NCBI RefSeq assembly: GCF_009914755.1
Contig: NC_060935.1
Direction: 5' to 3' (one strand)
DNA from: the human T2T-CHM13v2.0 reference genome, Homo sapiens
DNA length: 64,000 bases
Shown here: positions 41,226-45,660 of the stretch, in pieces
Position numbering within the stretch: the stretch's first letter is position 1
How the letters are laid out: each line of letters opens with the position of its first letter
Translations under genes and position numbers: made by a program
The notes under the pieces: generated by a model
Told to the model about the DNA's origin: nothing
Database searches by the model: none
The model's input: the letters and a program-made list of their open reading frames with translations, nothing else

Positions 41226-43151
41226 TGCCCACTCTGGCTTTCCTTATTTAGCTCAGATTAGCCGAAGCCTGGATGGAAGCCATTCAGCAAGTCACAAGCA
41301 GCCTTCCCAGGCTTCCCAGGCTTCACTCAGATAGCCCCTCTGTCTGGAGTTGAATTTACATATATGCCATGTGCCCCTCCCTACGCCTTTGCTTATCACA
41401 GCCTACTTGCCTTTAAAAACCCAGTTCAAATTCCACTTTTTTTTCCCCTTTTTTATTTTGCCGAAGACTCATGATATTGCTTGGCTTGGTGCTAGGTGCT
41501 TGGTGCTGGGGGTACTGCACTGACTCAGCTGATTCCAGCTCTCAGGGGGCCCACAATTCACTGAGAGAGTCCAATCATTTCAGTCTGGTATGGGAAGTGC
41601 TGCAACAGAGGGGCAAATGGAGAAGGAGAGGTGGGGCCCTGCCAGCTTGGTTAGGGCCACAGTCAGGAAAGGCTTTTTGGAAGGGGTGGTGCTTGAGTGA
41701 GAGTAAAAGGAAGACCAATCTCTGGCAAAGTGAAGAGAAGTCCAGCAGTGTTGTCGGCTGAGGCCCCTCTGCCCCATCTGTTGTGCTGCCTGTCATCTCA
41801 GGTAGAAATCACACCTTTCTCTACTCCGGACTGATGCCAGCATTCCATGAGTATTAATTTCTGGACTTGGGTTTTTGAAAACAAACTGCCCGTAGGTGAT
41901 CAGGAAGGGGAGGGGAACCCAAAACTGGTTATATAAGGAACAGCAGCTGAATTATGCATATTTAGACTGGGAGGTAGGGGGACTGAGTGAAAAGGAAATG
42001 GACTGTTTTTATAACACAGAGCTTCCAAGTGCAAAATGTAGGAGCTGCAGAAGGCAGAGGTCAGCTGAACACAAGAAAGAGCTCTCTACTGGCCTTTATT
42101 TAAAAGAGAATGAACTTGTTTTGGCCCGTTGTCCCTGGAGAGGTTCAAACATGTATCCCCACTGGAGGTCACATCATAGAAAATGGTGACAGTTAGGTAA
42201 GATGCCCTTTAAACTCCTTTCCAGTGGAAATTCTGTCGCACCACCATCATCCCTCGATGACTCCCGTCAGCTGCTGACTTTAGTCCAAGCTCCATGGAGC
42301 AGCACACAGAGCACTCCACCTCTCCACTCACATCCCTACTCACACCCACTCTCAAACTCCAAGAGCAACACCAAATCACTGGTGCTCTGCACACGTATGC
42401 CATGTTCAGTATTTAAAATACCCTCCCCTATCCCTTTGCCAGTGTTTATTCTCCAACACTCAGCACTAGCACTGTAGTGGATTTTTGTCACTTTTTTTTT
42501 GCACTATTATTTCCAATTTGGCAAATTAACTCCCCAACTGTGTCTCAATGGAAAGGTAACTAGTGTCCTGCCTCTTACTAGAACTCAGGAGGAAGCTAAG
42601 GGAGTCATATCCTTCCTTTATCAGCCTCCAGTTGCAGCTAGGAGGCAGGCAAATGACAAAAATCCAGCCAACTGGGCCTTCTCTCAAGTTACTTTGAATC
42701 CAAAGTCATAAGGAATAGATAAAGGTGATTTTCTGGTGGTGTGGGGGCAGTAGCATGGTGTCCTTAACTGGTTGTTTAGGCAGTAACGTGGTTGTGTCTT
42801 TTTTCTTACTTTTTAGACTTCTGGAGTGCCCTTGTTTCTCATTTCCAGATTAATCAATATGTATTAAATGAATGAATGAAGCAGAGGGATAAAGGTCAAA
42901 GACTTAATCTAAAGCAAATTATGTGCAAGGTCGGACCACTTAATGATCAGAAATGGAGGTAAAGAGAGGGAAATAAAAATAAACAGGAGAATGGTCACAG
43001 CACTAACAGAAATGAGGGGAAGTGTTGGTTTAGGGAAGATAGAGAGGAAGGATAGCGAATACCAAATTTTTATTATAATCCCCCCTCCAAAACGTTTCCA
43101 TTTATATACATACCAACTCTTCTCCTTTAGTGAGAACAAAAATAAAACCCT

Positions 43152-44586
43152 GCTCCCCCTCCCTCTCCCTCTCCCGTCTCCCACTTTCCACGGTCTCCCT
43201 CTGAGGCCCAGCCTAGGCTGGACTGTACTGCCGCCATCTCGGCTCACTGCAACCTCCCTGCCTGATTCTCCCGCCTCAGCCTGCCGAGTGCCTGGGATTG
43301 CAGGCGTGCGCCGCCACGCCTGACTGGTTTTTGTATTTTTTGGTGGAGACGGGGTTTCGCGGTGTTGGCCGGGCTGGTATCCAGCTCCTGACCGCGAGTG
43401 ATCTGCCCGCCTGGGCCTCCCGAGGTGCCGGGATTGCAGACGGAGTCTCGCTTACTTAGTGCTCAATGTTGCCCAGGCTGGAGTGCAGTGGCGTGATCTC
43501 GGCTTGCTACAACATCCATCTCCCAGCCGCCTGCCTTGGCCTCCCAAAGTGCCGAGATTGCAGCCTCTGCCCTGCCGCCACCCAGTCTGGGAAGTGAGGA
43601 GCGTCTCTGCCTGGCTGCCCGTCTCTGGGATGTGAGGAGACCCTCTGCCTGGCCGCCCAGTCTGGGAAGTGAGGAGCGCCTCTTCCTGGCCGCCATCCCA
43701 TCTAGGAAGTGAGGAGCGTCTCTGGCCGGCTGCCCATCGCCTGAGATGTGAGGAGTGCCTCTGCCAGGCCGTGAACCTGTCTGGGATCTGAGGAGTGTCT
43801 CTGCCTGACCGCCACCCCGTCTGGGAGGTGAGGAGCGTCTCTGCCCGGCCGCCCCGTTGGGGAAGTGGGGGGCAGCCCCCGCCCGGCTGCCGCCCCGTCC
43901 GGGAGGTGGGGGGCGCCTCTGCCCAGCTGCCCCGTCTGGGAAGTGAGGAGCCCCTCTGCCCGGCCGCCACCCCGTCTGGGAGGTGTACCCAACAGCTCAT
44001 TGAGAACGGGCCATGATGACGATGGCGGTTTTGTCGAGTAGAAAAGGGGGAAATGTGGGGAAAAGAAAGAGAGATCAGATTGTTACTGTGTCTGTGTAGA
44101 AAGAAGTAGACATGGGAGACTCCATTTTGCTCTGTACTAAGAAAAATTCTTCTGCCTTGGGTTGCTGTGAATCTATAAACTTACCCTCAACCCCGTGCTC
44201 TCTGAAACATGTGCTGTGTCCACTCAGGGTTAAATGGATTAAGGGCGGTGCAAGATGTGCTTTGTTAAACAGATGCTTGAAGGCAGCATGCTCCTTAAGA
44301 GTCATCACCACTCCCTAATCTCAAGTACCCAGGGACACAAACACTGCGGAAGGCTGCAGGGTCCTCTGCCTAGGAAAACCAGAGACCCTTGTTCACATGT
44401 TTATCTGCTGACCTTCCCTCCACTATTGTCCTATGACCCTGCCAAATCCCCCTCTCCGAGAAACACCCAAGAATGATCAATAAATACTAAGAAAAAAAAA
44501 AAAAAGTGTAATAGATATAATTTGGTGAACATTGTCAATTTTATAAAATTAAATCTTTTTCATTCAGTTATAATAAATAAATAAAT
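43152..44586 (+). mobile_element. Full-length SVA (older, SVA_B/C-like) with 3' transduction
   Basis: CCCTCT hexamers from 43153, antisense Alu-like domain, GC-rich VNTR ~43570-43990, SINE-R, AATAAA and poly(A) 44492-44505; TSD AAATAAAACCCT at 43140-43151 and 44587-44598. Confidence 0.95.
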
Positions 44587-45660
44587 AAATAAAACCCTAT
44601 TATTTTAGGTTGTGTTAGCTGCTTGGTCTCTTTACGTGGGTCTCAAGTCAATGGCCTTGCCCTTTACTTTCAGAGACTGTTACATTTAAAGAATGCATCA
44701 AATAGCACATACCCAGTGGCAGGAGAAATCGAAGATGATTTGGAGGTTTCAAACCAGGGAGATATACGGCCACTCAGGAAAAGCAGGAAGAAAATGTGGA
44801 GCTTGAGATTTCAGCAGGTATGTTGTGAGCAGAGATGACCCAACAGCAGCAACATGTCTCTAAAACAGGTGGTATCGCCACTGCATATTTCTCGTGCAAC
44901 TCTGCGCATATGCAGAATCAAGGATTTGGTGTTTTTCTTCTTCAAGAAGAAACATGACATAGGTTCTTTCATCTGACAAACATTTATTGGGTACCTACTG
45001 AGGGCCATACACTGTTCCAGGCAGTGGTAAAGTAGTGAAAAAGCTATGCTCATGAAGACAGATAATACTACTACTTAAATTGATTTGTTCATTTGTTTAT
45101 GTGCTATAAAGAACAATAAACTAGGGAAAGTGGTTAAGGACGGGGTCGGCATGGTTCTCAGAATATTCCATTTAGAAGCTGACAAAAGGACCTCGTAGAA
45201 CATTCCTTTCAGTCATCTTCCCTTTGAGCCTGATCTGGGAAAGGCAGGCAACAGAGACCAGGACCACAGATTCATAACAACCCTTGGAAACTCAGTCCTT
45301 CATCAGTATTGAAGCATAGATCTACGGTTATTACCGTGAGAGATTTCCAAACTTTAAACTTTTGTCTTATTATAGTAGCTGGCGCTAACATGGGCAAACA
45401 AATTAGATCAGCTTAAGGAGAGAAAAAGAAAAGAAAAATAAGAATGTTAATGTTAGTTCTCACATCTGGGACTTCTGATAAACCAATCAAGAAATATTTC
45501 CTGAGTACTAAGCCAGAATATTCATTTAGATGCAAAGTGGATTCTAGGGTATGTGATGTGTGTATTTCAAGAGTATTTCCTGTTTAGATAGCAAGCTTTA
45601 TGAACTACACAGTATCTCAAATAAAAATTACACAGAAACTCATGCCTATGAAGAGACCTG

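What the first reader, a model, noticed from the sequence alone, without database searches (positions are those of the whole stretch)
44492..44598. SVA carries a ~65-bp 3' transduction with its own poly(A) signal and second tail
Seen: the TSD AAATAAAACCCT (43140-43151) does not reappear after the SVA poly(A) (44492-44505) but at 44587-44598. Between lie 65 bp of non-SVA sequence (GTGTAATAGATATAATTTGGTGAACATTGTCAATTTTATAAAATTAAATCTTTTTCATTCAGTTA, 44506-44570), with ATTAAA at 44548-44553 about 17 nt before a second A-rich tail decayed to (TAAA)n. Known: read-through of the weak SVA poly(A) signal mobilises downstream flank. Inference: the 65-mer is a barcode of the source SVA locus and may define a sibling family.
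Basis: partly seen in the sequence, partly recalled or inferred. Interest (0 to 1): 0.7.

Follow-up and report, generated by a model that had tools for sequence, protein, structure and literature searches.

The report
SVA transduction from a vanished parent
A jumping gene (SVA) on human chromosome 11 carries a short stretch of DNA that matches a single spot on chromosome 2, likely picked up from a parent copy that once sat there and was later lost; this is a known and ordinary process.

Summary
Observation confirmed. A full-length SVA (43152-44505) is followed by about 66 nt of foreign DNA and a second tail, all inside one 12-bp target-site duplication. The segment has one other genomic match, chr2:75,351,023-094 (70 of 72 bases). 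That site has no tail and no SVA within 40 kb, so chr2 is the origin and it is empty. The junction reads TT|AAAAA, an L1-endonuclease-type site, and a T-rich tract follows the cleavage point. Best reading (0.8): 3' read-through from a source SVA that sat at chr2 and never fixed. A published table lists the chr11 element as SVA_B, shared by human, chimp and gorilla, and lists no SVA at the estimated donor position in these three. Three further transductions among 29 related SVAs also traced to empty donors (4 of 4 in all), which makes this look typical for old SVAs. New member of a known kind; low interest.

The parts
43138..43151 (+). 5' target-site duplication (exact 12 bp 43140-43151; probably 14 bp from 43138)
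43152..43182 (+). SVA 5' end: a G, then CCCTCT-type hexamer head
   Evidence: many relatives also start with G after their duplication; Damert 2018 legend attributes such a G to capping
43183..43560 (+). SVA Alu-like domain
   Evidence: domain geometry fits the published SVA_B row
43563..43985 (+). SVA VNTR, about 11 units of about 40 bp
43986..44484 (+). SVA SINE-R ending in its own AATAAA (44479-44484)
44492..44505 (+). First poly(A) run (A14), inferred to be the source element's genomic tail; its last 5 A are shared with the chr2 donor
44506..44571 (+). Captured segment, matching G000:C2:75351028-75351093; two differences, at 44508 and 44550
44542..44553 (+). Candidate poly(A) hexamers: TATAAA 44542-44547 (same in donor) and ATTAAA 44548-44553 (donor ATGAAA)
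44572..44593 (+). Second tail, now 5.5 copies of AATA, running into the 3' duplication
44587..44598 (+). 3' target-site duplication (exact 12 bp)

Best explanation
The chr11 SVA carries about 66 bases that match one site on chr2, and it was likely copied from a parent SVA that once sat at that site, was read through into its flank, and was likely lost without ever becoming fixed. Steps: (1, inferred) an SVA_B inserted in sense at the chr2 TT|AAAAA site in the ancestor of African apes. (2, inferred) RNA polymerase II passed the SVA's own AATAAA and genomic A-tail and was cleaved about 66 nt into the flank, just before a GU/U-rich tract. (3, shown by structure, enzyme from established knowledge) L1 proteins inserted the whole RNA at chr11, giving one duplication round SVA, first tail, flank and second tail. 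(4, shown in a published table) the daughter is shared by human, chimp and gorilla. (5, inferred) the parent allele drifted out, leaving an intact empty site.
For: One duplication encloses everything. Single donor, 70 of 72 bases. The donor has no tail and no SVA VNTR or SINE-R match in 40 kb. Homology starts at the first A of TT|AAAAA, as expected if it began with the parent's 3' duplication. The 60 nt after the cleavage point are 60% T, reached by 0.27% of windows in the 40 kb. Levy 2017 Data S1 lists the element as SVA_B in human, chimp and gorilla, not called in orangutan, and lists no SVA at the estimated donor position in human, chimp or gorilla. Three further transductions among 29 relatives trace to empty donors with junctions TT|AAAA, TT|GAAAA and CT|AAAAA. 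Kirby 2025 reads sourceless cases the same way.
Against: The parent itself was not seen in any genome. The ape tables come from old, gapped assemblies: the gorilla column also lacks a nearby SVA_B that human and chimp share. The donor lacks ATTAAA. The junction motif was defined after I saw the donors: 303 of 1,861 background A-runs fit it, P about 0.015 for at least 3 of 4, so that figure is soft. Five shared A also fit a template switch.
Confidence: 0.8

Rival explanations
1. RNA chimera: reverse transcription began on a polyadenylated chr2 transcript and switched after about 66 nt to the A-tail of an SVA RNA through the five shared A; no SVA ever sat on chr2.
For: Empty donor with a strong cleavage-site context; five shared A at the junction; Kirby 2025 proposes a template switch for an SVA-CKS1B chimera.
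Against: Kirby's case lacked a poly(A) between the parts, whereas an A14 is kept here. A switch does not predict TT before the A-run, seen at 3 of 4 donors against 16% background. Four of four cases share the same anatomy. No transcript ending at the chr2 site could be checked.
Confidence: 0.09
2. The parent became fixed at chr2 and was later removed precisely by recombination between its duplications.
For: Gives the same empty site as loss by drift; not separable in one genome.
Against: No SVA is listed there in human, chimp or gorilla, so the deletion must predate the split or repeat; Damert 2018 calls precise deletion the less likely route for missing SVAs; 4 of 4 empty donors would need it each time.
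Confidence: 0.05
3. Nested insertion: a 66-nt, 5'-truncated retrocopy of a chr2 transcript later inserted into the A-tail of an already resident chr11 SVA, its own duplication hidden in the A-run.
For: An all-A duplication would be invisible; the tail is a plausible endonuclease target (own knowledge).
Against: Needs a second rare event in a window of about 20 bp; the same layout recurs in 3 of 29 relatives; no second duplication seen.
Confidence: 0.04
4. The segment is native chr11 sequence and the 12-bp match is chance.
For: The outgroup orthologue was not seen; the match is A-rich.
Against: Chance rate 6 of 62,151; the segment alone matches chr2 while both flanks are single-copy at the junctions; the chr2 copy has no tail after it.
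Confidence: 0.01

Closest known systems
SVA-mediated 3' transduction (Xing et al. 2006, not held, recalled; Halabian and Makalowski 2022, PMC9311842; Hoyt et al., bioRxiv 2021.07.12.451456; Kirby et al. 2025, PMC12593883)
   Same: SVA, first tail, unique flank, second tail, one enclosing duplication; origin on another chromosome; length close to the 71-bp median for polymorphic SVA events in PMC9311842 Table 3.
   Different: Old element shared by three apes rather than a young polymorphic one; no source at the origin (Kirby found sources for 84% of young cases); no siblings.
Sourceless transductions ascribed to a lost source (Kirby 2025: chr13 origin of a 121-bp segment; Damert 2022, PMC9132208: orangutan lcr16a SVA)
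   Same: Origin traced, no SVA there, loss or rarity of the source inferred.
   Different: Here the junction is also shown to sit on an endonuclease-type motif, and the same holds for further old elements.
SVA_B subfamily
   Same: Published row for this locus: SVA_B by RepeatMasker and by network community; SINE-R 2.4-5.4% from 29 relatives.
   Different: Nothing unusual in the body; I did not test diagnostic positions myself.
Template-switch chimeras (SVA-CKS1B in Kirby 2025; U6/L1 type, recalled)
   Same: Foreign 3' part with no SVA at its origin.
   Different: An internal poly(A) is kept and the junction lies on an endonuclease-type motif.

Membership tests
SVA 3' transduction | One target-site duplication encloses SVA and extra sequence | tested here: met
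SVA 3' transduction | Extra sequence lies between the SVA's own tail and a second tail | tested here: met
SVA 3' transduction | Extra sequence maps to another locus where it has no tail | tested here: met
SVA 3' transduction | Poly(A) signal 10-40 nt before the second tail, GU/U-rich tract after it at the origin | tested here: inconclusive
   T-rich tract met; hexamer is ATTAAA in the copy but ATGAAA in the donor, TATAAA in both
SVA 3' transduction | Source SVA directly upstream of the origin | tested here: not met
   None in 40 kb of this genome; none listed for chimp or gorilla. Published catalogues keep such cases as transductions with a lost source, so this lowers 'source proven', not 'works like a transduction'.
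SVA 3' transduction | Pre-insertion site in an outgroup lacks SVA and extra sequence | not testable with these tools
   No primate relatives held; only indirect: SVA not called in orangutan
SVA transduction group (siblings sharing one segment) | Two or more SVAs carry the same segment | tested here: not met
   Only the chr11 and chr2 copies; searches skip simple repeats, counts are lower bounds
SVA_B | Hexamer, Alu-like, VNTR, SINE-R order | tested here: met
SVA_B | Subfamily-diagnostic positions | not tested
   Label taken from Levy 2017 Data S1; row matched to this locus by domain spacing
Template-switch chimera | No poly(A) between the two parts; origin is a known mRNA | tested here: not met
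   A14 kept; whether a transcript ends at the origin could not be checked

The most novel reading that the evidence does not exclude
Old SVAs were spread mostly by sources that never fixed: among fixed SVA_B-age elements nearly every 3' transduction points to an intact, empty endonuclease site (4 of 4 here), so these segments form a base-accurate map of vanished insertions in the ancestral African-ape population, and may keep the lost haplotype's alleles (both chr11 differences make better poly(A) elements, TGTA and ATTAAA).
Probability: 0.45. Interest if true: 0.4.

Novelty: new member of a known kind. Interest (0 to 1): 0.22.

Why it matters
As a single locus it matters little: 66 non-coding bases moved by a well-described process. 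Its value is as a fossil: it marks, to the base, where a now-missing SVA likely stood on chr2 in the ape ancestor. If the 4-of-4 empty-donor pattern holds genome-wide, it would make testable the idea that short-lived, never-fixed copies drove most old SVA spread, and it would mean catalogues that need a source element undercount old transductions.

Tried and rejected
Sibling search: 65-mer, 1-kb donor region and a 23-mer with up to 2 mismatches all gave only two copies of the segment. Alternative duplication starting at the first bases of the segment: no copy upstream of the SVA, so 'retrocopy first, SVA second' is rejected. CCCT as part of the hexamer head and not of the duplication: rejected, it is present in both copies and the element then starts with G like many relatives. 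Reverse direction (chr11 to chr2): rejected, no tail follows the chr2 copy. Paralogue of the empty chr11 site: none, flanks single-copy at the junctions. Control set: of 29 relatives, 20 got a duplication call; 6 had a gap over 55 nt; I dropped L011 (A-rich tail only), L031 (9-bp A-rich match, doubtful) and L032 (nearer duplication) and followed 3; seven had no call in either script. Literature: searches gave 0 papers; searches listed none on this locus by title or abstract start; Kirby 2025 supplements gave 0 hits for six coordinate prefixes (no positive control, hg38 prefixes rest on a recalled offset). Xing 2006, Damert 2009, the journal version of Hoyt 2022 and one further review asked for by a recalled id were not held; Hoyt Table S13 and the Xing 2006 list could already hold this locus. 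The Chu 2023 supplement was listed but not read.

Full report
Observation. The 12-mer occurs exactly twice in the window, directly before the SVA's first base (43152) and at 44587-44598; it is the longest word shared between the 500 bases before the element and the 1 kb after it. Taking each window position as a pseudo-junction, 6 of 62,151 gave a match of 12 or more bases in the 150 bases after the poly(A). The second tail is 5.5 copies of AATA. The duplication was probably 14 bp (13 of 14 match).

The element. It is full length: G, hexamer head, Alu-like domain, about 11 VNTR units, SINE-R with AATAAA at 44479-44484. A genome search scored 40 of 7,462 candidates; the best relative was 93% identical overall, and SINE-R differed by 2.4-5.4% from the 29 relatives fetched, so the element is old. 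Levy et al. 2017 (PMC5640379; passages and parts 1, 16, 17 plus row searches of Data S1 seen) list hg19 chr11:74038842-74040191+ as SVA_B, present in gorilla, human and chimp and not called in orangutan. I reached that row from recalled gene coordinates and confirmed it by domain spacing.

The origin. The 65-mer has one other match, G000:C2:75351028-75351092. Homology spans 72 bases, window 44501-44572, with 2 differences; 2 of 67 is 3% (95% interval 0.4-10%), compatible with an African-ape-ancestor age but not precise. No tail follows the chr2 copy, so it is the origin. No SVA VNTR or SINE-R match lies in the 40 kb round it, only ordinary Alu matches about 19-21 kb upstream. Homology begins at the first A of TT|AAAAA, the L1 endonuclease consensus (motif from established knowledge), as expected if the captured piece starts with the parent's 3' duplication. 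The 60 bases after the cleavage point are 60% T, a level reached by 0.27% of windows in the 40 kb, which fits a real cleavage site with a downstream element.

The signal. Which state is ancestral cannot be told here. The other difference gives the copy a TGTA. That both favour polyadenylation in the copy is a hint of a lost haplotype, no more.

No siblings. The 65-mer, the 1-kb donor region and a 23-mer with up to 2 mismatches (control pattern 0 hits) found only these two copies of the segment. These searches skip simple repeats, so counts are lower bounds.

Is the parent kept in apes? Two flanking human SVAs fix the T2T-to-hg19 offset at about +218 kb, placing the donor near hg19 chr2:75.569 Mb. 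Levy's lists show no SVA between 75.02 and 75.95 Mb in human, between 75.09 and 77.54 Mb of chimp chr2A, or between 72.82 and 86.59 Mb of gorilla chr2A. These assemblies are gapped, and the gorilla list also lacks a nearby SVA_B shared by human and chimp, so absence is weak evidence. Kirby 2025's two supplementary files gave no hit for six coordinate prefixes (no positive control).

Control. Among the 29 relatives, 20 got a duplication call; 6 had a gap over 55 nt; 3 were dropped as tail-only or doubtful and 3 were clear transductions. Each traced to one best donor: C7:141.498 Mb (98%), C1:67.106 Mb (99%), C11:72.3656 Mb (96% against at most 88% for other Alus over comparable length). None had SVA sequence next to the junction (about 1.5 kb each side for the first two, about 725 bases upstream for the third). 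Junctions read TT|AAAA, TT|GAAAA and CT|AAAAA. With chr2, 4 of 4 donors are empty and 3 of 4 have TT before the A-run, against 303 of 1,861 background runs (P about 0.015; motif set after seeing the data). The subfamily of these relatives was not looked up.

Mechanism. Most likely (0.8) a parent SVA_B inserted at the chr2 site, was read through about 66 bases to a flanking cleavage site, and the RNA was inserted at chr11 by L1 proteins; the daughter was inherited by three apes and the parent was lost. Shown: enclosing duplication, two tails, single tail-less origin, empty site, junction motif, T-rich tract. Inferred: the parent's existence, read-through, loss by drift. Rivals: template-switch chimera (0.09), precise excision (0.05), nested retrocopy (0.04), chance (0.01).

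What is known. Kirby 2025 (PMC12593883; abstract, sections 7 and 10, passages, supplement search) finds transductions on 40% of polymorphic SVAs, sources for 84% of them, and treats the rest as lost or rare sources. Halabian 2022 (PMC9311842; passages) gives a median of 71 bp. Hoyt et al. (bioRxiv 2021.07.12.451456; passages, supplement not seen) count 55 top-confidence SVA 3' events in CHM13. Damert 2018 and 2022 (PMC6139936, PMC9132208; passages) describe unidentifiable sources and call precise deletion less likely than lineage sorting. Xing 2006 was not seen and is cited from memory; it or Hoyt's Table S13 may list this locus. Searches showed no paper on this locus at the level of titles and abstract starts.

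Verdict. Real, well supported, and a new member of a known kind. Interest 0.22. The part worth following is general: empty donors may be the rule for old SVAs, which would turn these segments into a map of vanished insertions.

Noticed in passing
L028 (G000:C4:37.477 Mb, minus) and L055 (G000:C7:141,497,958-141,498,083): Related SVA with a 3' transduction of about 150 bp ending after AATAAA; its single donor is empty and the junction reads TT|AAAA.
   Followed up: yes
L036 (G000:C21:42,178,616-42,178,881) and L057 (G000:C1:67.106 Mb, minus): Related SVA whose 3' transduction is part of an older repeat and holds an internal tandem duplication of about 70 bp that the donor lacks; donor empty, junction TT|GAAAA.
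   Followed up: partly
L012 (G000:C13:35.187 Mb) and L062 (G000:C11:72,365,400-72,366,400): Related SVA that carries an Alu right arm; best donor is an Alu with no SVA in its A-rich linker. That donor Alu also has about 50 extra bases in its left arm.
   Followed up: partly
window 43658-43827 and 44674-44817: The predicted lncRNA LOC112268078 starts inside the SVA VNTR and uses a GT donor at 43828 to splice to an AG acceptor at 44673, skipping the SVA signal, the captured segment and the second tail.
   Followed up: no
window 44572-44660: Decay of the second tail created five overlapping AATAAA (44572, 44576, 44580, 44584, 44588) followed by GT-rich flank, about 1 kb from the convergent PGM2L1 3' end and 4.5 kb past P4HA3-AS1; a possible secondary poly(A) site.
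   Followed up: no
L002:854-999 of the query (G000:C2 about 75,351,680-75,351,825): An old low-copy repeat fragment (77-78% to loci on C18, C6, C4) begins about 600 bp downstream of the donor site.
   Followed up: no
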